From the NCBI GenBank assembly GCA_023269965.1, contig JAGDXU010000003.1, positions 1 to 60,674 on the forward strand: a stretch of 60,674 nt of DNA, in the 5' to 3' direction. Within the stretch, counting starts at the first letter, position 1; every line of letters starts with the position of its first letter. Below, piece by piece: positions 1-37,025 of the stretch. Source of the stretch: Candidatus Parvarchaeota archaeon (GTDB lineage: Archaea > Nanobdellota > Nanobdellia > Parvarchaeales > Parvarchaeaceae). The notes under the pieces are model-generated. The model saw only the letters and a list, made by a program, of their open reading frames with translations, did not search any database and was not told the DNA's origin. The position numbers and the translations under genes were made by a program.

Positions 1-749
1 TAGATCATAGAGACATTGCCTGCACCATTATCAGAAAGCCAGAGGTTTCTCATGGGTATGAAATCAACCTCGAGGTTATAGCCTGCGGAGATGTTGTCTC
101 CTGCGGCATAGATTGGATAGTAGGTGACTCCATTGACTGTGACTGGATAGATCTGGAAGGCTGAATTGGGAAGGGATACGAAGGTCATGGATGAAGATGA
201 TGTTGTCTGGTTTATTCCGCTGTAGACTACTGTCCATGGGACGTTTCCTGGAAGATTATAGGCTGTGAAGGTATTCATTGGAGGGGCTGTGGAGGATCCC
301 TTTGCTGTTCCTGACAATGTGTATGGACCTGGGAAGGCTTGGTTAGGCTCTGTGTATGTCACTGTCAAGGTTATCGAATATGATGTTCCTGAGGATTTTG
401 GACATACTCCGAACAGAAGGAATTCCCTTGTCTGTCCTGGATTCATAGTTACTGATACAGGCTGTACTGATGATACTCCTGTTGATGATGTTGCGTTTAT
501 CTGTGATATTGAGATTGTATATCCCAAAGCATCTGAAAGCTTGACTACCATCTCTCCGTTTGATGCGCATGCTGCCGAAGCTGGCTGGAATCCTGTCATT
601 CCTGTCACTCCTGAGAAGGATAGGAAGGATGATGGTGAGAATATACCCATGCTGTACAGGACTACTGCCACTATGACTATTATTAAGATGGCCCAGCCGT
701 AGGTCATCATATATTCCAATGCTGATTGCGATCTATAGGATAAAACCAT
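1..749 (-). CDS. Class III signal peptide (archaeal type IV pilin-like) protein, 3' end cut by the window edge
   Basis: Hand translation of the minus strand from ATG at 749 gives MVLSYRSQSALEYMMTYGWAILIIVIVAVVLYSMGIF..., open to position 1. The QSALEYxxTYGWAILII motif is the typical archaeal class III prepilin N-terminus. The distal part (FTAYNLPGNVPWTVVYSGINQTTSSS) resembles the C-terminal domain of the giant proteins. It is absent from the ORF track because it has no stop in the window. Confidence 0.75.
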   Translation of the reverse strand, partial: MVLSYRSQSALEYMMTYGWAILIIVIVAVVLYSMGIFSPSSFLSFSGVTGMTGFQPASAACASNGEMVVKLSDALGYTISISQINATSSTGVSSVQPVSVTMNPGQTREFLLFGVCPKSSGTSYSITLTVTYTEPNQAFPGPYTLSGTAKGSSTAPPMNTFTAYNLPGNVPWTVVYSGINQTTSSSSMTFVSLPNSAFQIYPVTVNGVTYYPIYAAGDNISAGYNLEVDFIPMRNLWLSDNGAGNVSMI

Positions 750-916: not shown

Positions 917-1741
917 ATGGACAGACAGCTAACTCTTGAGGAAGCACTTTTAAGGATAGTCGAAAATTATAAACCTCAGCAGAAAAAACCGTTCAAATAC
1001 AGCGTACCTACATATATACAGGGATATCAATTCAGGCTCGACTATGAAAAACTTATCTCCCCAAGGGAGGACATGTTCAAGTTCCACACCTATCACGTCA
1101 AAGACAACGGCGAGGTAGGGCACCTGTATTACTGCAAGGAGTGCAATGACATCGTATATTACAATCAAACGAAGAAAGGATTGGAATACGAGGGGAAGAT
1201 AGTGTTTTTCACGAATGATGAGATAGACAGCCTAAAGCAGAAGAAGGGGCTTCTCATAACAAATTTCTTCTATGACAAGCCTATAAAGCCGGAGATAGTA
1301 AAGGACAGCTACGCACTTGAACCTCATGTAGACAAGGATGAGGATGAAACTGCATGGAACAAGACTTTGTACGATGTCATCTTGGACTGGATGAAGACTG
1401 AGAATAAAAGGCCACTGGTCGTCGCAAAGATGTCAAGTGGGGGGTTCAAGAACGGGCCGGATATTGGTGTGATGTCTTACGACAAAACTAAAAACAGGGT
1501 GATGCTGAACATTATCTATTATTCAGATGAGATAAACAGCGTTAGTCAATATACTGAGGGGAAATATGACGCAAAGAAGCTCAAAGCAGCTGAGACTAAA
1601 CTCTTCGGGGAGATGAAGCCCCTAGAAGAAGAGTTAAAGACTCCGCAGATCAGAAGGATATTCGATATAATCTTAAGCAAGGAAGAACCTAAAAAAGAGG
1701 AAAAGAAAGAGCAGAGATCTGCGCTGGATAGGCTTCTTTGA
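917..1741 (+). CDS. Hypothetical protein with a Lys/Glu-rich C-terminal tail
   Basis: A 274 aa ORF with ATG start and no competing ORF. I recognise no family. It contains a possible CxxC (YYCKECND) but no second Cys pair. Confidence 0.6.
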   Translation: MDRQLTLEEALLRIVENYKPQQKKPFKYSVPTYIQGYQFRLDYEKLISPREDMFKFHTYHVKDNGEVGHLYYCKECNDIVYYNQTKKGLEYEGKIVFFTNDEIDSLKQKKGLLITNFFYDKPIKPEIVKDSYALEPHVDKDEDETAWNKTLYDVILDWMKTENKRPLVVAKMSSGGFKNGPDIGVMSYDKTKNRVMLNIIYYSDEINSVSQYTEGKYDAKKLKAAETKLFGEMKPLEEELKTPQIRRIFDIILSKEEPKKEEKKEQRSALDRLL

Positions 1742-3274: not shown

Positions 3275-4096
3275 TCAAGACAGCAGATTCCTCGCTCTTT
3301 CCAGGTCTTTGAATGAGTGTATTTTGATCCAGTTGCCATTGCTAAGATAAGCTGAAAGAGATTCCTCCTTCGCAAGTATGGGGAGGAGATCGCCATGTAT
3401 CTTCCAGTTCATGTTGCCTGGCGGGATATAACGCAGCAAGGACGGCTCAAACAGCATGATGGATGTAGGCACCAGCTTGCTCTTTATTTTAGTCTCTATC
3501 TTCTTGTAGTTCGTTATCTTGTTTCCTCTTATCGTGATCAACGCATTTGTCTCATACTCCTCTGATGTTGTGTTCAGCACGGCTATTGAGGCAGTGCTGT
3601 TGTGAGAGTCATGAAAGTTCAGCATATCCTTCAGGTCTATGGAGAAAACCGAGTCGCCAGGCACAAAGAGCGTAGTGGAGGTTATATAATCTCTTAGCTT
3701 TTCCAATGCCTTCGCGTCGCCTATCACCTCATTGTCATCAAAATACTTGATATTCACGCCGAAGCCCTCGCCGTTCTTGAGAAGCGTAAAGGCACCCTTT
3801 AAGATCTCAGATTTACCGGATATGATGATGTTTCTAAAGCCGCCTTTTTTCACTTGTCCTATTATCTTCTCGATGATAGTTTCTGACCCTAGCTTGACTA
3901 GAGGGCTGTACAGATTAGTCCCCTCTATGACGAGGTCCCCACCACATAGAATAACCGCGCTTTTTTGAGACTCAAAGTATTTTTTGAGTATGCTCTCCAC
4001 CGCCTCGCTTTTTGATCTGTATGAGATATTGTCAACCAAAGAATCCAACTTGTCTATTATTTCGGGATCGACCGTGAACGACACTCGCGCTTTCAT
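3275..4096 (-). CDS. Ribbon-helix-helix (CopG/NikR-like) domain fused to a sugar-phosphate nucleotidyltransferase-like domain
   Basis: The N-terminus MKARVSFTVDPEIIDKLDSLV...RSKSEAVESILKKYF follows the RHH pattern. It is followed by AVILCGGDL...LFVPGDSVFSIDLKDMLNFH, which resembles the NTP_transferase fold. Confidence 0.6.
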   Translation of the reverse strand: MKARVSFTVDPEIIDKLDSLVDNISYRSKSEAVESILKKYFESQKSAVILCGGDLVIEGTNLYSPLVKLGSETIIEKIIGQVKKGGFRNIIISGKSEILKGAFTLLKNGEGFGVNIKYFDDNEVIGDAKALEKLRDYITSTTLFVPGDSVFSIDLKDMLNFHDSHNSTASIAVLNTTSEEYETNALITIRGNKITNYKKIETKIKSKLVPTSIMLFEPSLLRYIPPGNMNWKIHGDLLPILAKEESLSAYLSNGNWIKIHSFKDLERARNLLS

Positions 4097-21663: not shown

Positions 21664-21769
21664 TCACAAGAGATTAGAGTGCTCAAGCTATTTTAACTTA
21701 TTTGCTACATTTCTAGCTTGTAAAAGCGGCCAAATCTGATAAGTTAGAAGAATCACTATAAAAGAGGAA

Positions 21770-22037
21770 GGTAGGCTGCTCTGCTTTGAATTAACTACCC
21801 ATATAGAGGGTGGTAACATTTTCTCCATGCGATTTGTCTATAAGCTTGCACCCACTCAATTACAGTTGCTCCCTTCCGGGCCTGGCTGGGTTTTTAAGCG
21901 AATGCCCCCTATAGGACCGCACTTCGCAGATAGCTTTACCATCTTGTATGGGGTCATTAACCCTAGGCAGAGCTTTTACCCGCGCCTGAAGTCCATTTGC
22001 GCTCACAAGGAGGGACTAATTCCCCGGTTAGCCTACC
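21770..22037 (-). ncRNA. Signal recognition particle RNA (7S/SRP RNA)
   Basis: The minus strand contains CCAGCCAGGCCCGGAAGGGAGCAAC, the conserved SRP helix-8 region. The 5' GGTAGGCT (22037-22030) pairs with the 3' AGCCTACC (21777-21770) to close the molecule. The ends are approximate. Confidence 0.75.
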
Positions 22038-22160
22038 AATAGTTAACTTATTCAACTTCGGATAAATAGTTTATAGTTAACAATTTTGTTAACGATATGA
22101 TATTTTTATACATAATAGACTATGGTAAAGCGGCGATGTGCTTGTTGGTCCCTCTTAAAC

Positions 22161-28049: not shown

Positions 28050-28135
28050 TGTCGGGGATGGGATTTGAACCCATGACCTCCGCCTATCCCAGATCATCTC
28101 ATGAGGGCGGCGTACTACCGCTGTACTACCCCGAC
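28050..28135 (-). tRNA. tRNA with CAT anticodon (elongator Met or Ile2) carrying a ~14 nt intron, no encoded CCA
   Basis: The minus strand reads GTCGGGG-TA-GTACAGCGGTAGTAC-G-CCGCC-CTCATG[AGATGATCTGGGAT]A-GGCGG-AGGTC-ATGGG-TTCAAAT-CCCAT-CCCCGAC-A. The intron sits at the canonical 37/38 site. G1:C72 and the anticodon stem argue against an initiator. Confidence 0.85.
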
Positions 28136-28673: not shown

Positions 28674-31600
28674 TTATTCGCATTCATGTGGTATTTGGGA
28701 AACTGCCATGCACTCCTGGTACGAAAACGCGTATCCTATAGTTTGGGTTGAACCAGCCTGTAAACTACCACTTGCCGGAGCAGGGGAGTAAACCTGTGTA
28801 TATTCATAACCTGTTGGACATGATGGATGACTACTAGGGAAATAGCAGCCATTCGAAGCAGTGAATTGATAAGTTCCCGGAGATGTTGTAAACAAGGTAT
28901 ATGAGCTAGATGAAGATTTAGTATTACCATCATAAGTTAACCACCAATCTGCACCCGATGGTAACCCACTTTCTATAAATGTAGTTTCGACTGACTGCTG
29001 TGATGATGGCTTTGGAGGGTACAAAGACAGATGCGGCCCTGTTCCAGTGTTGACCTGATATATCGGGACTGGCACAACATTATAAGACTTTGGAGAGACT
29101 AAAAGCGTATAGCTTATGTTCCAAATCGTAGGCAAGTTGTAGGCCATATAATAATTAGAATAAACTGCATATGTTTGATTATTATTACCTTGGTAGATGC
29201 AGTTCACTATGTAACCATATAGTGCGCTGTTTATGCTGTTGCAGTCTTCATCGGATGAGATGTTAAGCTGAGTACCCTGCCCATTATATCCTGCAGAGAA
29301 GATTCTGCTGTTGCCGTTAGGGCACTTTGCATTCAAATTAGCGGCAACTCCACCTGAACTGTATAAGGAAACGGATGGAGGGCTGTTCACACTGCTATTC
29401 TTCACGCTATAGAACTGGACTGAATGAACGCCTTCATTCAGCCCGCCTAGAAGTAAGTATATCCCATTTGAGTAAATCGATGGGAGAGTATTACCATCAC
29501 ATAATTTACCTTCCCCAAGCGAGAATATGCCATTGTTTCCTTGGGTTAAGGATCCGGGGCAGTTGCCCTGAGTCCCACCGCTGAATATATTCATCGCATA
29601 GTCTAATTCACTCCCGTTCACAAAAGCAGGAACGCCGGATATTGCAAAGTAAGGATACTGGAGCAGTAATGTACTCAGCAAATCATAAGGATACAACGGC
29701 GATTCAAACATTGCAACAGATTCTATGGCAGATTCTAGAGGCTTGTAAGGGTAAAGTTGAGTGAATTCATTTATTAGCTCATGCTGTGAAACGGAGAGGC
29801 TGGTCATGTAGAAATCCTTCGTTTTCGCGTTGTTATTCCCAGGTATGTACACATTCAATGGAGAAGTAGAATTAATCACACCTAAACCAACGCCTACATC
29901 TGAAGCAGGGGAGTATTGTAGCACAAAGGAGGCATCCAACGTAGAATTCTTGGAGTTGGGGTATGCAAAACAATTGTACTGTGGATTCGGAGCCTGATAT
30001 GCAGATGCATTGACAGAAGCTGGCAACGCAGCACATGACAAGCAGCTAGCACCATACTGTGGCGAGTTCGAGGTCAATGTCTCGAGACTAGACGATTCCT
30101 GCGGAATATTTGAAACACATGACGATGGTGAATAAGTCAAGCTTTGATTACTGGAATAATCTCTTGGTGTTTGCGTGACGTTTTCACAAGCCAAGATGCT
30201 TCCAGATCCAGAATTGCACGAATAGGTGTACTGAAATCCGCCTCCAGAAGTAGTTGATTTAGAGATAGTTGGGGCACTTGTGTTGTAAGTGAACCTGCAA
30301 GCCTCACATGCGCCTACATCCGGCAGAATATTTGGATTCCCAGTAGTCGGTATATTATTGTCTGAAAATGTAAATGGAGTCCATGACCATCCATAATTAT
30401 TCACATTAGTAGCGATATTATTCGTTTTATTTTCGCATAAGAAAGTGGACTGGTTGAAAACTGTCGGCTCACTTTGAGTGAATGATATCTGGGTAGTGCT
30501 TAAACTCATATACACAGGTGATACACCAGTAGGATAATCAGGAATATAGTCGACGCCCCATACGCTTCCATTCGCACCTGTGACGCTGGTTGGGCAATTT
30601 CCATTTGAATAACTAAAACTGCTATAAAGATTTGGATCTGTAAGCATAGAACATTCTGAGGTGAAAGTCAATGGATTCTCATTAAGAGTACCTGGTGTAA
30701 TAAACGCAGGAGAGCACGTTGTCCCGCTCGTTGCCCCATCAGAATAGCTGCATCCAACAGGCTCATAACTCCAGCCACTGCATGAGCCTAAAACCTGTGT
30801 GGTGTTTGAGGCGTTAACGTAGGTTACTGACTCAGTCACATTTGCATAGCCGCTACAAGAAAACGATGCATCAACCGCTGAAGGTGAGGAAGTAGGTATT
30901 CTGCTGCCGCTAGAGTAGCTGAAAGATATACTTCGAGTAGACGAGACGACAGCACTATTAGATGAGAAGTTACCTGCATAGTAATGAGATATCGTTCCGG
31001 CAGTAGGGGCGCAACTGTAAGTGGAGTCTATGAGACATCCGCCGCCGGCAAGATAATTTGAACCGGTTGTTGCTGCTGTTGGAATGCACTCCAGGCTCTT
31101 AAATGAACCAGGCTGCGGGACAAATGAAACCTGGGATAGACAAGGCGTAAATGCGGCAATTGTAGTGTTTATTGGACAACTACTTATCATAACGCCACCA
31201 TTTGGATTGAATAGTGCTTCAGAGCTTGGGGAGGCTATGGAATTATTCATTATATAATTCTCCGGATTAGAATTATCATATGGTTGTAGTACTCCATTCA
31301 TATAGAACTGTGGCTCTGATAAAGTCGTATAAGTATAACCACTGTAACTGTAACTCTGATGTGGGGGTAGAGCACACAAACCGTAATAGGTAGTAGTAAA
31401 CTTATTCCCAGACGTGGTTTTGAAAGTTATGTTATAATTTCCAGGCTCGAATTGAAATCCTAATCCGGTCGTATAATTTTCATTAGAAGAAGATGAAGGC
31501 GGAAAGTTACTTGAATACGTTGCTGGAGCGCCATTGTAAAGGCAGTAAAAACTACCCTCATCCGACGGACTCAAAGTGACTGGCTGTTCTGTCTCAGAAT

Positions 31601-34600
31601 TAGAGTAAGTCTGGATCTGTTGTATTTGACTTTGCAGGTTCAGGCAGCTAGATCTAAAGTTGTTGATAAGGCTGGATTGAACTTCATTGTAATTTGTGAT
31701 TTCATGATAATACTTTACGGTTGAATATTGCGTACATGACGTCTGTATTGGCTTGCTGACATTCAATGTAATCTCATTATTGGTTTCTGCCAATGAGAAG
31801 TTACCATTAAGGGAATCACTTATAAAGAAGTCAACTGGATTGCCCTGACCATACACAGAGTCCAAAACTATATTTCCACCGTTGAAGAAGCAGTATGAGC
31901 TTATGAAATTCTCTGTTGGGTTGGTTATAAGATAAAGCTTGTTCAGATCGTAGTTTATCTGACCAAAGCCTGACATCTCATTATTTACAGTCTGGGATGA
32001 CGTGAAAGAAACATCGAAACAGTCCATAATCGGGCCACTTTGCATAAGGCTTATCGACACCGAGTTCGGCTCCACTGAAACATTATTTATCAACGTATTT
32101 CCTACACTCTCACCATATATCGTGGTATTACTAAGGCAAGGCCCATAGCTTGGTTTACACTCTGGTAAAAGATTGAAATCACCGTTTGTTGTCTCTATCT
32201 TGTAGTATCCATTGTATGCTGTGTAGTTCAGCCAATTCGAAGGATACTGCATGGATGGCTCTTCAGTGGCTTCTAATAGTGTATAATTGCTTTTGCCCAC
32301 AACTGGGACAAACATGTATGTACAGATGTTACTATTAGAGCCCACAACCTGATACGGTAGCTCCTGATATGGATAGCTACCATACTCGGTGATTCTAAGG
32401 AGATTACAAGATGAACCTAGCAAAGGCAAAGGCAGAGAAAACTGTATAGGCAAGCCAGAAGGAGAATTCGAAGGCAGGGATATGTTCTGCAAAGCTGATG
32501 GATTATCATCTATTATATTCGGAGACCTGGCTATGATACTTCCCTTAACAAGACGAGATGAAGTTATGTTTGAAAGGTAAATGCTCACTGGTGATACAGT
32601 TCCATCTCTATATAGGTAAGCAATCAGATCATAGTTGAAGCCATTATCAGATGCGCTTCCGGTGAAATAATTGGAACATGGAGAAGTGGATGAGGAGTTC
32701 AATACGCCACCAGTCACGATTTTACCCTCGAAGCAGGTTTCAATTTCAGGGTTTCCGTTGTTATAGGTTATATTGAAAAGTGTTACATTTTGTGAATTTA
32801 TCGGCTGCCCATTGTATGTTATATACAGCCTAGTGGCATTCAAGTATGTAACAGTGAAGCCAGAACCTACATCGCTACTGCCTAGGTACTCCCCATTTGA
32901 CGCATTCAACAACACAGCTCTTATGTAGTTGAATTGACTTGGTGTATTGCAGAAGATTTGGCCTGAGCCGAGGTTATACTCCCCGGGGGCTATCTGAGAA
33001 ACAGAACTGTCATTGAACAGGGTGCCATCGTTAACAAAGTTGCAGGAGAAAGGTGTCCCATTTATGTAATAAAGGTAAGCATCTACATTCTTATTCACAG
33101 TGGACAAAGGCGTATAAGAGAACCTGAAGGATACTCCATTTGCCAGAGAGACGCTGCTGTTAGGCATTATAATCGTAGTGTTGTAGTAACCTGTAACATT
33201 GTTCCCCCTTGAGAAGTTAGCGGCGACAACAAAAGCATTATTTTGTCTCGTGTTAGAGACATTTAGAGAGGATGCATTGTACATCGAAACTGTAAACGGC
33301 CCATCCTTAGACTTTATGATTATTGTATAGTTCTGATACGGAGTCGACTGACAATTATCGTTTATGATAGAATTACTAACGCCTACAACACCTGAAGAGT
33401 TTGTAGTCAGAGTCTGCGTAGAAAAGCTGCAACCGGCTTCAGGCGATATTATAACCTGTATATTGCTAAATGGATTAGGGTTCGTCAGAATCTTCATAGA
33501 TGCAAGTCTTAGGATACTTGGGTCATTCGAACCCGCATCCGCTATCATCTTGAACCCATATGAATCGATCGGCGGAGAGAACATGTCCGAGAACTTTATC
33601 CCGGTATTTGTGGTGGTATTGAAGAAGTAATAGCTGTAGTTCAAATTTGAATACAAATTGTTTTCTGGGCCGCTACCGAAGTACAAAAGCGCTTCCTTAT
33701 AAAATGAAGCCTCCGGGTTCTGGACGCTTGCACTCTGCACCTGGAATGAAGCAGTTGAACCAGGATAGTACGGCACATTATTATAGTTCAGCACGACTGG
33801 AGATGAGTAAGGCATAAATAGTATCCCCCTCCACCTATCGATAATCTCATTCTGATACGGTGAGGTCTGCCCATATACGTCCTTAAGCAGGTAATTTATG
33901 TTTGACGGGGAAGATGGTTGGACAGACCAGTAAACACTAAAATCATTCAGATTGTCCTGAGATGCGAAACAAGTCAACGTGGAACCCCTTATGTTCGAAG
34001 CTGATATGGATGGGTAATACCCTGTACCGTTTAATTTTGACACGGTAAGACCGAATGAAACATTAAGTTTCTGTATTGTGCTCTTCAATGCACTTACAGT
34101 GAAGTTGAGGCTGTTATTGTAAATTGAAACATTCGCGAAAGGCATGCTCGTAAGATTAAACTTGTATGACACGATGTACTGCCATACAGGCGAAGGTTCT
34201 CCACTGGACTGGTTTATGTACTCTTTATTGTGGATAAATGAGCTATTTTCTATCGATGATGCCACATAATTCGGCCCGTACTCATGATAGAATGTAACTG
34301 GACCGGAAGACCCGTAGAAACTGACATTGAAGGTGTTCCCAAAGAACACACTTATGTTATCACCGCTTTCCATCAGCTTCTTGAAAACAGGCATCGGTAT
34401 GTTTACAGTGAAAGAAGCTGTTCCGCCTGGCGATATGATAGGCACCTGTGTATCGCTTGAATTTGCAAAATCCATGAAGGTATTCGCAGACCTTATAGCC
34501 TTTCCATTGTAGTATATCCACATGCCAAGCAATGAGTTATTATAAGGCCCATTTATGTAGTTATACGGAGAATTCTGAAATATCTCTCCTATCGGCATAT

Positions 34601-37025
34601 CTTGAATTGGGTTGGAGGGGGTTGAGACATACATAGCTGTCTCAGAACCATTAATGTATCTTATCTGAAATACATTGTTGAAATTCGAGCTGGAAAGTTC
34701 ATCTAGGAAATTTTGGTACAGATGATACTGATTTGACGACGATTGCTGGGCTGAATAGAACATATTCGAGATGTTTGTATGATTGTATAAAACAACTAAA
34801 TAAGGAGAGGTTATATTATCATTACCAACGTTCTTTACAGTTATTATCAATGGAACAACAGAGCTGTTAGAGTTGAAAGCGGGGCAGTTGGAAACCCTCA
34901 TCATAAAGATAGTTGAATTGGCCAATGGGTCCGTTATGTTCTTTTGACCCCCGAATAATCCGCAGTATTGACCGCCGTTGTTGGCTACAACAATCGAATT
35001 TATCCAAGCGTCTGTGACATTGTAGGGAACTATTCCGTACCTTGTACATGTAGGGTCTCTTACGAATATACCATATTTAAAGTTCATGTAATTGCCTGAC
35101 TGCACGGAACTATCCACTGCCCCGCCAGGTAAAACAGTGTCAAAGCAATTCGTGTTATTGAACAGCGCGTTGCATTCACCTATGGCAACTGTGTAGTTCT
35201 CCAAAGATGTTGGTGGTATTACCCTAGTGTATCCTGGGGAGTTATACTGACCAGTATTTTGATTAAACGAATCATTGTAGAAACAGAAGCTATCCAAAAC
35301 TCTGGATTCAAAAATATTTAGCGCATTTTGAGTAGTAACAAATAAATTAGGATTATATCCCGGTGTATAAGGATTATATTGGAGATCATTCATATAAGTC
35401 TGTGGATTGCTCGTATACTCAAGATTACCTGGATTAGATAAGACCGTATTATAATAAGCTGCTGGTTTGCTGACTCTGCCGTTGTAATATGGAGGACTAT
35501 AGGTCGCGTGATAATCCCAGAGCCTATAAGGTGATATTGCATTCACACTGGATGCATTATTAAAGGTACATGAAGCCCCTTCATAACTTCCAGAGGGATA
35601 ATTGCATATTGGGAAAACCCCACTTACCTTGAAAACATTTGGTGTAGACCCTTGAGGAGTTTCACCGAGTAAGCCAGCAGCGATAGGATTTACAAGCAGT
35701 GAAAGAAGATCTGCAGGCAAAGTAGAGCCAACAACAGTAAGAGTATTGGGGAAGTAGCCTACCTGTAAATTAGGGACCGTATAAGCTGAAACGTTTGACT
35801 GTGTTAATGCGTAGGTTATATTAGGAGAGGCACCGGATTCGGTGTTATACGTCAATACAACATCCTTGCTCTCATACGCATACGCCACATCTCCTATGTT
35901 ACCGGTGTAGTTTATAGGTGTGCTGAAGAAATTAGAAACATTGTAGTATATCTTATCTCCGTGATTGCCAGGAGGGAAGTTAGCATAATTTAATCCAGGC
36001 TCAGTGAAATTGAAGGTAGAATCGAAAAAATGAGAAGCGGTTAACGAGAACATGCCCGATGCTTGATAAAATTCCTGTTCACCAAAAGGGTTAATTAGTC
36101 CCCCCATATCGAATGGAAGCAAAGCATACAAAGTCTGTACGCCACTGGGGACATTTGACGCTTCACCAACTGAGGATACGAATCCACTTAGGGTCTTAAT
36201 ATCTGGGACTGTATGATACACCAATGCTGAAGTAGCCTGCGAAAGATAACCGCGAGGGATGGGAAATGTACTGCCACATGAAACGGCTGGAACAATGAAC
36301 GTAGCTTCCCCAGTCGGATTAGCGCCTTCGGCACTGTCCAAAGGCACTGTATTAGTTGGATTGGTTGGAGTTTCGAAGAAAGGGAAGCTGTAGTTTATAG
36401 CAAATTGATCACCAAAACTGTAGGTGTTTATACTATTGTACCAATTTACAAAGTTATCAGTTTCATTATAAGCGTAAAAGGGAGTGCCCGCACCTACAAA
36501 GGAATTTTGCACGAAAAGAACTGAGCTAAGTTCACTTATTAAAGAGTTACCAGAGCTCTGCGGATACCCAAACCAGCCTTCAAATGAGAAAGTATCTACG
36601 GGATTTGCTGGTTCGTTAACATAAATACATGAGTACCAGCTTATACCTAAACCGCCCAAAGAGATCCACCTGCAGTATAAACCGATCTTAAGCTCTGTAT
36701 AATAATTACATTCACTACCATAGGCATTACCAGGTATGAAATATTCATTGTAGGGATATACATAAGCCACAGTCAAAAGATTTTCTGAAGTCTTTTCATT
36801 ATTAATGATGGTTTGCTGAGGTGATGGGTCAGGTGACTGCTGGAAGCTAGTTATGTGTTGATTGTTAGATACATATGTAGACATAGAATCATTGTTTAGG
36901 GATAGCGATTTATAATGGGATACATAAGAGAAAAAGAAGAGCGATACAACGACCAGAAGAGCAATCACTAAGATTAGATCCTTTCTTTTCCCTGCATCGT
37001 TTTTAGCTTCCATAATCTTTAACAC
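28674..37025 (-). CDS. Giant (about 2780 aa) N-terminally anchored, predicted heavily N-glycosylated surface protein with a C-terminal ESGLPS-type domain
   Basis: It is an uninterrupted 8.35 kb ORF. The N-terminus KRKDLILVIALLVVVSLFFF is a signal anchor. The remainder is N/S/T/Y/P/G-rich, K/R/D/E-poor, and has many N-x-S/T sequons and Cys. The track start is GTG at 37025, and the in-frame ATG at 37013 is more likely. Confidence 0.85.
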   Translation of the reverse strand: MLKIMEAKNDAGKRKDLILVIALLVVVSLFFFSYVSHYKSLSLNNDSMSTYVSNNQHITSFQQSPDPSPQQTIINNEKTSENLLTVAYVYPYNEYFIPGNAYGSECNYYTELKIGLYCRWISLGGLGISWYSCIYVNEPANPVDTFSFEGWFGYPQSSGNSLISELSSVLFVQNSFVGAGTPFYAYNETDNFVNWYNSINTYSFGDQFAINYSFPFFETPTNPTNTVPLDSAEGANPTGEATFIVPAVSCGSTFPIPRGYLSQATSALVYHTVPDIKTLSGFVSSVGEASNVPSGVQTLYALLPFDMGGLINPFGEQEFYQASGMFSLTASHFFDSTFNFTEPGLNYANFPPGNHGDKIYYNVSNFFSTPINYTGNIGDVAYAYESKDVVLTYNTESGASPNITYALTQSNVSAYTVPNLQVGYFPNTLTVVGSTLPADLLSLLVNPIAAGLLGETPQGSTPNVFKVSGVFPICNYPSGSYEGASCTFNNASSVNAISPYRLWDYHATYSPPYYNGRVSKPAAYYNTVLSNPGNLEYTSNPQTYMNDLQYNPYTPGYNPNLFVTTQNALNIFESRVLDSFCFYNDSFNQNTGQYNSPGYTRVIPPTSLENYTVAIGECNALFNNTNCFDTVLPGGAVDSSVQSGNYMNFKYGIFVRDPTCTRYGIVPYNVTDAWINSIVVANNGGQYCGLFGGQKNITDPLANSTIFMMRVSNCPAFNSNSSVVPLIITVKNVGNDNITSPYLVVLYNHTNISNMFYSAQQSSSNQYHLYQNFLDELSSSNFNNVFQIRYINGSETAMYVSTPSNPIQDMPIGEIFQNSPYNYINGPYNNSLLGMWIYYNGKAIRSANTFMDFANSSDTQVPIISPGGTASFTVNIPMPVFKKLMESGDNISVFFGNTFNVSFYGSSGPVTFYHEYGPNYVASSIENSSFIHNKEYINQSSGEPSPVWQYIVSYKFNLTSMPFANVSIYNNSLNFTVSALKSTIQKLNVSFGLTVSKLNGTGYYPSISASNIRGSTLTCFASQDNLNDFSVYWSVQPSSPSNINYLLKDVYGQTSPYQNEIIDRWRGILFMPYSSPVVLNYNNVPYYPGSTASFQVQSASVQNPEASFYKEALLYFGSGPENNLYSNLNYSYYFFNTTTNTGIKFSDMFSPPIDSYGFKMIADAGSNDPSILRLASMKILTNPNPFSNIQVIISPEAGCSFSTQTLTTNSSGVVGVSNSIINDNCQSTPYQNYTIIIKSKDGPFTVSMYNASSLNVSNTRQNNAFVVAANFSRGNNVTGYYNTTIIMPNSSVSLANGVSFRFSYTPLSTVNKNVDAYLYYINGTPFSCNFVNDGTLFNDSSVSQIAPGEYNLGSGQIFCNTPSQFNYIRAVLLNASNGEYLGSSDVGSGFTVTYLNATRLYITYNGQPINSQNVTLFNITYNNGNPEIETCFEGKIVTGGVLNSSSTSPCSNYFTGSASDNGFNYDLIAYLYRDGTVSPVSIYLSNITSSRLVKGSIIARSPNIIDDNPSALQNISLPSNSPSGLPIQFSLPLPLLGSSCNLLRITEYGSYPYQELPYQVVGSNSNICTYMFVPVVGKSNYTLLEATEEPSMQYPSNWLNYTAYNGYYKIETTNGDFNLLPECKPSYGPCLSNTTIYGESVGNTLINNVSVEPNSVSISLMQSGPIMDCFDVSFTSSQTVNNEMSGFGQINYDLNKLYLITNPTENFISSYCFFNGGNIVLDSVYGQGNPVDFFISDSLNGNFSLAETNNEITLNVSKPIQTSCTQYSTVKYYHEITNYNEVQSSLINNFRSSCLNLQSQIQQIQTYSNSETEQPVTLSPSDEGSFYCLYNGAPATYSSNFPPSSSSNENYTTGLGFQFEPGNYNITFKTTSGNKFTTTYYGLCALPPHQSYSYSGYTYTTLSEPQFYMNGVLQPYDNSNPENYIMNNSIASPSSEALFNPNGGVMISSCPINTTIAAFTPCLSQVSFVPQPGSFKSLECIPTAATTGSNYLAGGGCLIDSTYSCAPTAGTISHYYAGNFSSNSAVVSSTRSISFSYSSGSRIPTSSPSAVDASFSCSGYANVTESVTYVNASNTTQVLGSCSGWSYEPVGCSYSDGATSGTTCSPAFITPGTLNENPLTFTSECSMLTDPNLYSSFSYSNGNCPTSVTGANGSVWGVDYIPDYPTGVSPVYMSLSTTQISFTQSEPTVFNQSTFLCENKTNNIATNVNNYGWSWTPFTFSDNNIPTTGNPNILPDVGACEACRFTYNTSAPTISKSTTSGGGFQYTYSCNSGSGSILACENVTQTPRDYSSNQSLTYSPSSCVSNIPQESSSLETLTSNSPQYGASCLSCAALPASVNASAYQAPNPQYNCFAYPNSKNSTLDASFVLQYSPASDVGVGLGVINSTSPLNVYIPGNNNAKTKDFYMTSLSVSQHELINEFTQLYPYKPLESAIESVAMFESPLYPYDLLSTLLLQYPYFAISGVPAFVNGSELDYAMNIFSGGTQGNCPGSLTQGNNGIFSLGEGKLCDGNTLPSIYSNGIYLLLGGLNEGVHSVQFYSVKNSSVNSPPSVSLYSSGGVAANLNAKCPNGNSRIFSAGYNGQGTQLNISSDEDCNSINSALYGYIVNCIYQGNNNQTYAVYSNYYMAYNLPTIWNISYTLLVSPKSYNVVPVPIYQVNTGTGPHLSLYPPKPSSQQSVETTFIESGLPSGADWWLTYDGNTKSSSSSYTLFTTSPGTYQFTASNGCYFPSSHPSCPTGYEYTQVYSPAPASGSLQAGSTQTIGYAFSYQECMAVSQIPHECE
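28707..28832. repeat. Copy A of a 126 bp perfect direct repeat (3' end of the 2783 aa gene)
   Basis: It is identical base for base to 37049-37174 (offset 8342 bp). Near-identity continues to about 28892, including a second exact 38 bp block at 28855-28892. Confidence 0.95.

What the first reader, a model, noticed from the sequence alone, without database searches (positions are those of the whole stretch)
28674..29010. Shared C-terminal domain of the two giant proteins with a 126 bp perfect direct repeat
**The repeat**
- The last ~105 aa of the 2783 aa and 1269 aa proteins are homologous.
- One reads QQSVETTFIESGLPSGADWWLTYDGNT...FTTSPGTYQFTASNGC...HPSCPTGYEYTQVYSPAPASGSLQAGSTQTIGYAFSYQECM.
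- The other reads QQQSVETTFTESGLPSNSMWKVTYGSDS...FTTSPGTYQFTASDGC...HPSCPTGYEYTQVYSPAPASGSLQAGSTQTIGYAFSYQECM.
- At DNA level, 28707-28832 equals 37049-37174 exactly (126 bp, offset 8342 bp), followed by a second exact 38 bp block. The rest of the genes is unrelated.
- Synonymous-site identity this complete implies recent gene conversion or strong constraint on this module.

**The domain**
- The pattern TF.ESGLP.G..W.V matches a beta-rich module I recall as repeated in extracellular proteins of Sulfolobales and Thermoplasmatales, including thermopsin-like proteins.
- As the common end of both giants, it could be a docking, anchoring or sorting module.
- The extreme C-terminal tails differ (AVSQIPHECE versus SPNDVDRTC).
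Basis: seen in the sequence. Interest (0 to 1): 0.62.

Follow-up and report, generated by a model that had tools for sequence, protein, structure and literature searches.

The report
Shared surface-protein module homogenised by gene conversion
Two neighbouring giant cell-surface proteins of a tiny hot-spring archaeon each end in one copy of a very common archaeal beta-sandwich building block, and the copies are kept nearly identical because one repeatedly overwrites the other (gene conversion) - real and neatly documented, but an ordinary process acting on an ordinary module.

Summary
Window 28707-28832 equals 37049-37174 exactly (126 bp), and 28855-28892 equals 37197-37234 (38 bp). Only the last ~117 aa of the two proteins are related.

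The shared piece is one copy of an ~85-aa all-beta module (TFTESGLPSGxxWxVTY...PSPSSGxLxAGS). An exhaustive HMM search found it in 2,513 representative proteins, usually as 5-44 tandem copies. Named hits are from Parvarchaeota (ARMAN-5) and Thermoplasmata. No Pfam, NCBIfam or PDB family covers it.

The perfect identity is best explained by recent ectopic gene conversion, not by constraint:
- dS is ~0.9-1.7 in the 5' part of the module and 0 in the block.
- Independent assemblies show three haplotypes of the giant's copy, with 7, 1 and 0 differences from an invariant donor copy.
- The paralogues are 80% identical, against 58% for an orthologue in a related MAG.

The duplication is not an assembly artefact, since independent contigs span each copy into unique flanks. 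The full 126-bp extent is seen only in the window.

I found no support for a docking or sorting role. There is no C-terminal anchor, and an orthologue carries six modules at the same position. The thermopsin link exists only as an annotation label.

Verdict: a new member of known kinds, of modest interest.

The parts
28707..28832 (-). 126-bp block in the giant's 3' end, identical to 37049-37174. This is the recipient of the gene-conversion tract. It encodes SHPSCPTGYEYTQVYSPAPASGSLQAGSTQTIGYAFSYQECM, the last three beta-strands of the module.
   Evidence: Searches show the identity. Searches show that other assemblies carry 7 (28723, 28728-31, 28734, 28808) or 1 (28808) differences here. One search gives the strand positions.
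37049..37174 (-). 126-bp block in the 3' end of the 1269-aa gene, the inferred donor copy. It is invariant in every assembly examined.
   Evidence: window, L001, L009 and L003 are identical across the block.
28855..28892 (-). Second exact block of 38 bp (= 37197-37234), encoding FTTSPGTYQFTAS. It probably reflects an older conversion or a conserved core.
28707..29000 (-). Module copy 1, at the C-terminus of the giant. It is an ~95-aa beta-sandwich module of the 'TFTESGLP...PSPSSG' family.
   Evidence: An HMM built only from 40 foreign modules matches giant residues 2678-2768 with E=1.7e-22. The exhaustive search is.
37049..37342 (-). Module copy 2, at the C-terminus of the 1269-aa protein.
   Evidence: The foreign-module HMM gives E=7.7e-23 for residues 1164-1254. 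The AlphaFold2 model has pLDDT 91 and nine beta-strands.
28674..37013 (-). Giant protein gene: 2779 aa from ATG 37013, or 2783 aa from GTG 37025. It has one N-terminal hydrophobic helix, 79 N-glycosylation sequons and 58 Cys, and is predicted to be extracellular.
   Evidence: Orthologues are L006 (71% over the first 1375 aa) and L007/P0026 (37% over the last ~850 aa).
37019..40828 (-). 1269-aa protein gene. The N-terminus MNNKG|QANIIAVIGMILAVIFALL resembles a class III (prepilin-type) signal. The protein has 33 sequons and 24 Cys.
   Evidence: The same protein occurs on an independent JGI contig. The orthologue in L006 also ends in one module.
40825..44704 (-). Three upstream genes of the same tightly packed or overlapping operon: 831 aa (42209-44704), 269 aa (41396-42205) and 196 aa (40825-41415). 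Each has an N-terminal hydrophobic helix. The 196-aa protein carries KRG|QLTIIDLL, a prepilin-like motif.
   Evidence: None has a Pfam hit.
60..275 (-). Third, diverged copy of the module, inside a pilin-like ORF (N-terminus RSQSALEYMMTYGWAILIIVIVAVV) that starts near 749 and runs off the left edge of the window.
   Evidence: The foreign-module HMM gives E=6.3e-10.

Best explanation
**What it is**
- The two genes are the last members of a five-gene operon in a Parvarchaeales-like (DPANN) archaeon from an acidic hot spring.
- The operon encodes N-terminally anchored, heavily N-glycosylated, cysteine-rich extracellular proteins.
- Each of the two giants ends in a single copy of an ~85-95-aa Ig-like beta-sandwich module.
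- The module belongs to a very large, so far uncurated family of archaeal surface-protein repeats (consensus C-TTFTESGLPSGT-W-VTY-G...G-Y-F...C-Y-PSPSSG-L-AGS-Q-I-F).
- In this family it is a generic building block. It is strung in tandem and attached to pilin-like N-termini, C-terminal membrane anchors, beta-propellers or proteases. Its most likely role here is a structural or adhesive distal domain, not a sorting signal.

**How the identity arises**
- The two copies lie in the same orientation, 8.3 kb apart.
- They exchange sequence by ectopic (non-allelic) homologous recombination without crossover, that is, gene conversion.
- The copy in the 1269-aa gene has repeatedly overwritten the 3' part of the copy in the giant.
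- The latest tract produced the 126-bp perfect identity seen in this window. The process is ongoing in the natural population.

**Shown**
- Homology, family membership and predicted fold.
- The mosaic of dS values, polymorphic tract haplotypes, and paralogues more alike than orthologues.

**Inferred**
- The donor direction.
- The extracellular location and adhesive or structural role.
- The DPANN identity of the organism.
For: **Repeat and module**
- The repeat is real.
- Only the C-terminal ~117 aa is shared.
- Family size: 2,513 representatives at E<=1e-3 and 971 at E<=1e-10, with top hits holding 5-44 copies.
- An HMM of 40 foreign modules hits both copies at E~1e-22.
- The AF2 model has pLDDT 91 and is all-beta.

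**Conversion**
- In same-amino-acid codons, synonymous differences are 13/36 upstream of the block and 0/41 inside it (Fisher P=1e-5).
- NG86 dS is 1.7 over the first 108 nt and 0.93 over the first 168 nt. In the block it is 0 in the window and 0.10 in the JGI haplotype.
- Of 13 mismatches between JGI contig L004 and the window over 4,164 bp, 7 fall inside the 126-bp block (binomial P=3e-8).
- A third, intermediate haplotype occurs in ERZ1669250. Its contigs break exactly k=55 from the edges of a 101-bp shared node.
- Copy 2 is invariant in all assemblies.
- Copy 1 vs copy 2 is 80% aa. Either copy vs the orthologous module in a Parvarchaeota MAG is 58%, although the bodies are 71-74% identical.

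**Not an artefact**
- L001 and L009 span copy 2 into unique flanks on both sides, and L004 does the same for copy 1.

**Extracellular nature**
- Each protein has a single N-terminal helix.
- Sequon density is 2.6-2.8 per 100 aa, against 0-0.6 in cytoplasmic proteins of the window.
- The Cys counts are 24 and 58.

**Generic use of the module**
- The giant's orthologue has six copies.
- Fusion partners include YncE/NHL propellers, a protease pro-domain protein and a DUF2341 protein of ARMAN-5.
Against: - The fully converted state rests on one base, A at + strand 28808 linked to copy-1-specific bases at 28833/34. No public contig I could read shows it, so a consensus or polishing effect at that base cannot be excluded.
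- The donor direction assumes there is no third donor elsewhere in the genome.
- The giant's C-terminus in the related MAG was not recovered, so the paralogue-versus-orthologue test is one-sided.
- Nothing here measures function. The module's role as a distal adhesive or structural domain is an inference from architecture.
- The fold search found no significant structural relative (best E=0.017, TM<=0.48), so 'Ig-like' is a description of topology only.
Confidence: 0.8

Rival explanations
1. Assembly artefact: the identical block, or the whole second copy, results from collapse, chimeric joining or polishing with reads from the other copy.
For: - SPAdes contigs from two samples break inside the repeat (L002 starts at 28761, L009 ends at 28753, L005 starts at ~28725).
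- One low-coverage contig, L003 (2.6x), jumps from the 1269-aa body through the block into the giant's tail. So assemblers do struggle here.
- The window's base at 28808 is not seen on copy 1 in any other data set.
Against: - Both copies are spanned into unique sequence on both sides by independent contigs from other samples (L001, L004, L009).
- The converted bases 28723-28734 joined to the giant-specific tail occur in two further assemblies, L002 and L003.
- At most one base of the 126 (28808) could be artefactual.
Confidence: 0.07
2. Nucleotide-level constraint: the 126 bp is kept identical by selection on the DNA or RNA itself (an embedded regulatory or structured element), or by extreme purifying selection on the protein together with codon bias.
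For: - The block encodes the most conserved part of the module family (PSPSSG-L-AGS).
- Copy 2's block lies just upstream of the giant's start codon.
Against: - Wild haplotypes of copy 1 carry 7 substitutions in the block, including Y>D, A>I and S>L.
- The block folds no better than shuffled sequence (z=0.20).
- There is no Rfam match.
- The orthologue's module differs at many of these codons.
- The sequence downstream of each copy is unrelated.
Confidence: 0.03
3. A dedicated docking, anchoring or sorting module: the common C-terminal domain targets both giants to the same partner or export/anchoring machinery, and selection for that shared interaction keeps the copies alike.
For: - Both giants, and the 1269-aa orthologue in a related MAG, end with exactly one module followed by a short Cys-containing tail.
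- The three share a lineage-specific Cys-bounded insertion (GC...SCPTG) absent from canonical modules.
Against: - There is no C-terminal hydrophobic segment or known archaeal sorting motif.
- The module family is ubiquitous and mostly internal and tandem.
- The giant's more distant orthologue has six modules at this position.
- The module evolves faster between orthologues (58%) than the protein bodies do (71-74%).
- Synonymous identity cannot be produced by selection on a protein interaction.
Confidence: 0.1

Closest known systems
Tandem Ig-like or beta-sandwich repeats of archaeal surface proteins, including proteins annotated 'thermopsin' or 'hypothetical' with several Ig-like folds in DPANN and Thermoplasmata (for example those described for Nanobdella aerobiophila, bioRxiv 10.1101/2023.10.27.564410)
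   Same: - An ~85-aa all-beta module, N-glycosylated and Cys-containing, in secreted or anchored proteins.
- The same sequence family by HMM.
- Named relatives occur in ARMAN-5 Parvarchaeum, Parvarchaeota and Thermoplasmata MAGs.
   Different: - Here it is a single terminal copy rather than an array.
- It has an extra Cys-bounded insertion and a short Cys tail.
- It is not covered by any Pfam or NCBIfam model tested.
- No thermopsin peptidase domain is present.
Concerted evolution of paralogues by intragenomic gene conversion. From my own knowledge, not tested here: tufA/tufB in enterobacteria, and archaeal chaperonin paralogues (Archibald & Roger 2002).
   Same: - Short identical tracts bounded by diverged sequence, with dS dropping to zero.
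- Paralogues more alike than orthologues.
- Tract polymorphism among strains.
   Different: - Only one ~100-aa domain of two otherwise unrelated genes is involved.
- The evidence comes from metagenome populations of an uncultured archaeon.
- The donor and recipient roles look one-directional.
Large signal-peptide proteins and minor-pilin sets of archaeal type IV pilus loci, predicted to be adhesins (Makarova, Koonin & Albers 2016, PMC4858521)
   Same: - A cluster of small and very large secreted proteins with prepilin-like N-termini and many conserved cysteines.
- An ARMAN-5 module protein in the same 90% cluster as a top hit is labelled DUF2341. The paper links that domain to PilY-type tip adhesins.
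   Different: - There is no secretion ATPase, TadC/FlaJ or prepilin peptidase in the 60-kb window.
- No pilin family model matches.
- The giant's own N-terminus looks like a plain signal anchor.

Membership tests
Archaeal 'TFTESGLP...PSPSSG' beta-sandwich surface repeat (unnamed; no Pfam or NCBIfam entry found) | Significant match to a profile built from other members, over the full length of the module | tested here: met
   An HMM of 40 foreign modules matches model positions 2-81 of 85. E is 7.7e-23 for the 1269-aa protein and 1.7e-22 for the giant. The reciprocal exhaustive search gives 2,513 representative hits.
Archaeal 'TFTESGLP...PSPSSG' beta-sandwich surface repeat (unnamed; no Pfam or NCBIfam entry found) | Conserved motif positions: F, E-x-G-L-P, W, G-x-Y, Y-x-P-x-P-x-x-G, A-G | tested here: met
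   In alignment A3, L17 and G82 are invariant. F12, E14, P18, W23, G46, Y75, P79 and G87 are at least 90% conserved, and all are present in both window copies.
Archaeal 'TFTESGLP...PSPSSG' beta-sandwich surface repeat (unnamed; no Pfam or NCBIfam entry found) | All-beta (sandwich) fold | tested here: met
   The AF2 model has pLDDT 91 and pTM 0.80, with nine strands and no helix. It is a prediction only. No solved relative was found.
Archaeal 'TFTESGLP...PSPSSG' beta-sandwich surface repeat (unnamed; no Pfam or NCBIfam entry found) | Occurrence in tandem arrays | tested here: not met
   There is one copy per protein and no further copies in either body. Family members typically hold 5-40 copies. 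This is an atypical architecture, not a failure of homology.
Thermopsin (peptidase family A5; Pfam Thermopsin, PF05317 by my recollection of the accession) | Presence of the thermopsin catalytic domain | tested here: not met
   Neither window protein has any Pfam hit at E<=1. No thermopsin model appears among the 25 most frequent of the 34 families matched by 57 module-bearing proteins. The 'thermopsin precursor' name appears only as a source label on a module-only fragment.
Archaeal C-terminal sorting or anchoring signals (PGF-CTERM and related archaeosortase signals; C-terminal TM anchors) | A C-terminal hydrophobic transmembrane segment preceded by a short signature motif | tested here: not met
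   A hydropathy scan finds a TM-like segment only at the N-terminus of both proteins. The tails are AVSQIPHECE and SPNDVDRTC.
Type IV pilin-like proteins (class III signal peptide) | [KR]-[GA] cleavage motif followed by a ~20-aa hydrophobic helix at the extreme N-terminus | tested here: inconclusive
   The 196-aa protein (KRG|QLTIIDLLVAPIVAIVL) fits. The 1269-aa protein (NKG|QANIIAVIG...) fits partly. The giant (GKRKDLILVIALL) does not. These are motif readings only. There is no Pfam or NCBIfam pilin hit, and the AF2 model of the 196-aa protein was unusable (pLDDT 43).
Type IV pilin-like proteins (class III signal peptide) | Genomic association with a prepilin peptidase, a secretion ATPase and TadC/FlaJ | tested here: not met
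   None lies in the 60-kb window. The neighbours are housekeeping genes. Stand-alone pilin sets are known in archaea (PMC4858521), so this does not exclude the class.
Ectopic gene conversion between paralogous segments | An identical tract with sharp boundaries inside otherwise diverged homologous sequence, including synonymous sites | tested here: met
   The runs are 126 bp and 38 bp within 83% identity. dS is 0 in the block and 0.93-1.7 upstream. Fisher P=1e-5.
Ectopic gene conversion between paralogous segments | Polymorphism of the tract among closely related genomes, with an unchanged donor | tested here: met
   Copy 1 has three haplotypes, with 7, 1 and 0 differences from the donor. Copy 2 is identical in four assemblies. 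The flanks are 99.7-99.9% identical.
Ectopic gene conversion between paralogous segments | Paralogues within a genome more similar than orthologues between genomes | tested here: met
   Copy 1 vs copy 2 is 80% aa. Each vs the L006 orthologous module is 58%, while the bodies are 71-74%. The test is one-sided, because the other genome's giant C-terminus was not available.

The most novel reading that the evidence does not exclude
The five-gene operon could be a host-attachment apparatus of a DPANN (Parvarchaeales) episymbiont. In this reading, pilin-like giant proteins are displayed on the cell or on a filament, and the shared C-terminal module is the distal, host-contacting tip. Segmental gene conversion between the two tips, and perhaps deletion of the 8.3-kb giant gene by crossover through the repeat (as contig L003 would suggest), would then generate strain-level tip variants (Y/D, A/I, S/L) and presence/absence variation of the giant. 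That would be a minimal cassette-type surface variation system in an archaeon.
Probability: 0.1. Interest if true: 0.65.

Novelty: new member of a known kind. Interest (0 to 1): 0.3.

Why it matters
- It gives a clean natural-population example of ongoing domain-level gene conversion in an uncultured DPANN archaeon. Nested tract haplotypes are recovered from independent metagenomes.
- It flags a very abundant archaeal surface-protein module that current Pfam and NCBIfam models do not describe. At least 2,513 clusters at 50% identity carry it, with up to 44 copies per protein. Curating it would improve annotation of the many 'hypothetical' or mis-named 'thermopsin' giant proteins of Thermoplasmata and Parvarchaeota.
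- It warns that this repeat breaks or mis-joins short-read assemblies at this locus.
- It does not reveal a new mechanism or a new kind of system.

Tried and rejected
- **Word-index homologue searches.** With the module alone nothing was found, and with the module alignment only 4 fragments. The exhaustive HMM search was needed.
- **Family libraries and PDB by sequence.** Pfam and NCBIfam scans of both giants, the isolated modules, the other cluster proteins and module-bearing hits found no family for the module. There were only sub-threshold cumulative hits to assorted beta-sandwich families. PDB sequence searches gave only a weak HYDIN match (5e-5), too weak to use.
- **Foldseek against PDB.** No significant match was found (best E=0.017, TM<=0.48).
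- **AF2 of the 196-aa putative minor pilin without an alignment.** The model had pLDDT 43 and was unusable.
- **Exact look-up of the giant's product.** It is not on record from either start codon.
- **Genome and metagenome scans for related loci.** Each returned one locus (L006, L009).
- **Reads.** Only Logan unitigs of three small runs were available, with no raw reads. They confirm the unconverted and copy-2 forms but cannot test the window's 28808 state.
- **RNA-element idea.** Rejected: there is no Rfam hit at the repeats, and the fold z-score is 0.2.
- **Extra degenerate module copies inside the giant bodies.** None was found.
- **A literature search for the motif string.** It found nothing.
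Full report
**1. The observation**

The window holds a single direct-repeat family, 28707-28939 vs 37049-37281, at an offset of 8342 bp. At that offset there are exactly two long runs of identity: 28707-28832 (126 bp) and 28855-28892 (38 bp).

The homologous stretch, 28707-29000 vs 37049-37342, aligns without gaps at 83% identity. Both copies lie on the minus strand. They form the 3' ends of two adjacent ORFs, 28674-37025 and 37019-40828.

BLASTP of the two proteins finds only the last 117 aa related (72%, E=1e-42). Nothing else is significant.

The giant more probably starts at ATG 37013 (2779 aa), which is where the JGI gene call on an independent contig places it.

**2. What the shared piece is**

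Neither protein, nor the isolated ~111-aa ends, matches any Pfam or NCBIfam model. An exhaustive HMM search of 1.84 billion representative proteins with the two copies returned many hits:
- 2,513 proteins at E<=1e-3, 971 at E<=1e-10 and 74 at E<=1e-30.
- The best hits have up to 44 matched stretches per protein.
- Among the top 150, a local re-scan found 1,363 module copies, typically 5-15 per protein.

The unit is ~80-90 aa, with consensus C-TTFTESGLPSGT-W-VTY-G...I-F...G-Y-F...C-Y-PSPSSG-L-AGS-Q-I-F...C.

A profile built only from 40 foreign modules matches three places in the window:
- The 1269-aa protein, at E=7.7e-23.
- The giant, at E=1.7e-22.
- A third, diverged copy at window ~60-275 (minus strand), at E=6.3e-10.

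The third copy sits in a pilin-like ORF (RSQSALEYMMTYGWAIL...) that runs off the left edge. There are no further copies inside the giants.

AlphaFold2 with a 43-sequence alignment gives a confident all-beta model of nine strands (pLDDT 91, pTM 0.80). Foldseek against the PDB finds nothing significant. The best matches (E=0.017, TM<=0.48) are assorted Ig-like, carbohydrate-binding and Gram-positive pilin sandwiches. PDB sequence searches give only a weak HYDIN match.

Module-bearing proteins use every kind of anchoring. Of the top 150, 7 have clear QxAxE-type prepilin signals, 56 have an N-terminal hydrophobic helix and 59 have a C-terminal membrane anchor. They also carry varied partner domains, such as NHL/YncE propellers.

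Source names, where they exist, place the hits in a few groups:
- Candidatus Parvarchaeum acidophilus ARMAN-5. These are 3.6-4.1-kaa proteins, and one cluster member is labelled DUF2341.
- Candidatus Parvarchaeota.
- Thermoplasmata/Thermoplasmatota MAGs.
- Labels include 'protease pro-enzyme activation domain-containing protein' (one Thermoplasmata hit), 'YncE family protein' and 'YVTN family beta-propeller protein'.

One module-only fragment is called 'thermopsin precursor, partial'. However, no thermopsin model appeared among the 25 most frequent Pfam families in 57 sampled members. The Thermoplasmata part of the recollection is right. Sulfolobales was not seen among the 20 clusters I looked up.

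**3. The surroundings**

The two genes close a tightly packed, partly overlapping minus-strand operon of 831, 269, 196, 1269 and 2779 aa (44704 to 28674). The five proteins share several properties:
- All five have an N-terminal hydrophobic helix.
- Two have prepilin-like motifs with Q at +1: KRG|QLTIIDLL in the 196-aa protein and NKG|QANIIAVIG in the 1269-aa protein.
- The giant looks like a plain signal anchor.
- The two giants have 2.6-2.8 N-glycosylation sequons per 100 aa, against 0-0.6 in cytoplasmic proteins of the window.
- They have 24 and 58 cysteines, and few charged residues.

These are hallmarks of extracellular proteins of an acidophile, by inference.

The flanks are housekeeping genes:
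- Downstream of the operon: an adenosine-kinase-like protein, an Hjc-like nuclease, RIO kinase, Lon and ribosomal proteins.
- Upstream of the operon: CCA-adding enzyme, Lhr helicase and ADP-forming acetyl-CoA synthetase.
- Elsewhere in the window: EF-1alpha, SecY, PCNA and a proteasome subunit.

There is no pilus ATPase, TadC or prepilin peptidase in the window.

The closest genome locus, L006, is a MAG titled Candidatus Parvarchaeota archaeon DRTY-9_201705_bins_4. It has the same gene order:
- Its 1269-aa orthologue (74% in the body) ends in one module plus a Cys tail.
- It is followed by the giant's orthologue, 71% identical over the first 1,375 aa.

A more distant locus, L007 (GCA_030044235.1), is syntenic with the downstream genes. 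It has the giant's orthologue (37% over ~850 aa) ending in six tandem modules.

The public runs that hold the sequence are hot-spring metagenomes. This agrees with the Tengchong Parvarchaeales study (PMC10134863), which does not describe this cluster.

**4. Why 126 bp are identical**

*(a) Mosaic divergence.* In codons that encode the same amino acid, 13 of 36 differ synonymously upstream of the block, against 0 of 41 inside it (Fisher P=1e-5). Nei-Gojobori dS is 1.7 over the first 108 nt and 0.93 over the first 168 nt. In the block it is 0.

*(b) Population polymorphism.* Independent assemblies are 99.7-99.9% identical to the window in unique sequence, yet they differ precisely in the block of copy 1.
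- JGI contig L004 has 13 mismatches in 4,164 bp. Seven of them lie in the block (28723, 28728-31, 28734, 28808; binomial P=3e-8) and change Y>D, A>I and S>L.
- The start of L005 (ERZ1669247) and a Logan unitig of run X1 show the same unconverted type.
- In ERZ1669250, contig L009 runs from the operon through copy 2 and the whole giant, and stops exactly 55 nt after the 28808 variant. Contig L002 starts with the last 55 nt of the block and continues into the giant's tail. This is the signature of a k=55 graph node of 101 bp shared by the two copies. Copy 1 there is converted at 28723-34 but not at 28808.
- The window itself has no difference.
- Copy 2 is identical in all four assemblies.

Copy 1 thus has three nested haplotypes against an invariant copy 2. 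This points to repeated conversion with the 1269-aa gene's copy as donor. Even the least converted haplotype has dS=0.10 in the block, against ~1 upstream. Older events therefore preceded the recent ones.

*(c) Paralogues versus orthologues.* The two window modules are 80% identical. Each is 58% identical to the orthologous module of L006, although the protein bodies are 71-74% identical.

*(d) Constraint is not the cause.*
- The block tolerates seven natural substitutions.
- It folds no better than shuffled sequence (z=0.20).
- It matches no Rfam family.

**5. Artefact check**

The duplication is real. L001 and L009 span copy 2 into unique sequence on both sides, and L004 does the same for copy 1. 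The converted bases joined to the giant-specific tail are present in two other assemblies, L002 and L003.

One point remains unverified: the single base at 28808 in the window's copy 1. No other data set shows the converted state on copy 1. The '126 bp' may therefore be '101+24 bp' if that base is a polishing effect.

Contig L003 (2.6x coverage) joins the 1269-aa body through the block to the giant's tail and downstream genes. It is either an assembler jump through the repeat or a genuine 8.3-kb deletion by crossover. I cannot tell which.

**6. Function of the module here**

Nothing supports a sorting or anchoring signal:
- There is no C-terminal hydrophobic segment.
- The family is generic and mostly internal.
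- The copy number at this position varies from one to six between orthologues.
- The module diverges faster between orthologues than the bodies do.

The window copies and the L006 orthologue share a lineage-specific Cys-bounded insertion (GC...SCPTG) and a short tail ending in Cys. This is compatible with a specialised distal tip, but it is not evidence for one.

My best reading is a structural or adhesive beta-sandwich at the membrane-distal end of two N-terminally anchored giant glycoproteins. Its similarity is maintained mechanically by recombination between neighbouring copies, not by a shared function.

**7. Comparison and verdict**

The module is a member of a large archaeal surface-repeat family that lacks a curated model. 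The process is classical ectopic gene conversion, or concerted evolution. The operon resembles the 'minor pilins plus large predicted adhesins' sets catalogued in archaeal type IV pilus loci (PMC4858521), but without the machinery genes nearby.

It is a new member of known kinds. Interest is modest (0.3). It is useful as a documented case and as an annotation gap, but it is not a new mechanism.

The most novel reading still open is a host-attachment apparatus of a DPANN archaeon, with its tip module varied by conversion and its giant gene lost by repeat-mediated deletion. I give that about 10%.

Noticed in passing
window 3-749, minus strand (module at ~60-275): A pilin-like ORF with a clear class III signal (MVLSYRS|QSALEYMMTYGWAILIIVIVAVV) carries a diverged copy of the same module and runs off the left edge of the window. 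Its N-terminus is nearly identical to that of hit P0088 (1012 aa).
   Followed up: partly
L003 (ERZ1669251 NODE_986, 4820 bp) vs window 37981-37049 and 28915-24820: This contig joins the 1269-aa protein's body, through the shared block, to the giant's tail and downstream genes, so it lacks the 8.3-kb giant gene. It is either an assembler jump through the repeat at 2.6x coverage or a real deletion variant produced by crossover between the copies.
   Followed up: partly
window 28674-44704, minus strand: This is a five-gene operon (831, 269, 196, 1269 and 2779 aa) of N-terminally hydrophobic proteins with no database family. Two of them have G|Q prepilin-like motifs. There is no pilus ATPase, TadC or peptidase anywhere in the 60-kb window.
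   Followed up: partly
window 37013-37025: The giant's ORF can start at GTG 37025, overlapping the stop codon of the 1269-aa gene, or at ATG 37013. The JGI gene call uses the ATG, giving 2779 aa rather than 2783 aa.
   Followed up: yes
L007 1-7802 (GCA_030044235.1, JASHWD010000005.1): The giant's orthologue is called as two ORFs (ending at 4005 and starting at 4089), which may indicate an interrupted gene. It ends in six tandem modules instead of one. The downstream synteny (adenosine-kinase-like and Hjc-like genes) is conserved.
   Followed up: partly
hits P0001-P0150: A module present in at least 2,513 clusters at 50% identity, with up to 44 copies per protein, has no Pfam or NCBIfam model. 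Sources name the proteins 'hypothetical', 'thermopsin precursor', 'YncE family' and so on. It is a candidate for a new curated domain family.
   Followed up: partly
window 917-1741, plus strand: A 274-aa protein has a Ku70/Ku80 beta-barrel domain (E=2e-16), suggesting a Ku-type end-binding protein in this small archaeal genome.
   Followed up: no
window 21769-22038 (minus) and 28050-28135 (minus): Archaeal SRP RNA lies at 21769-22038 (100.7 bits). A tRNA-Met abuts the start of the adenosine-kinase-like gene just downstream of the giant.
   Followed up: no
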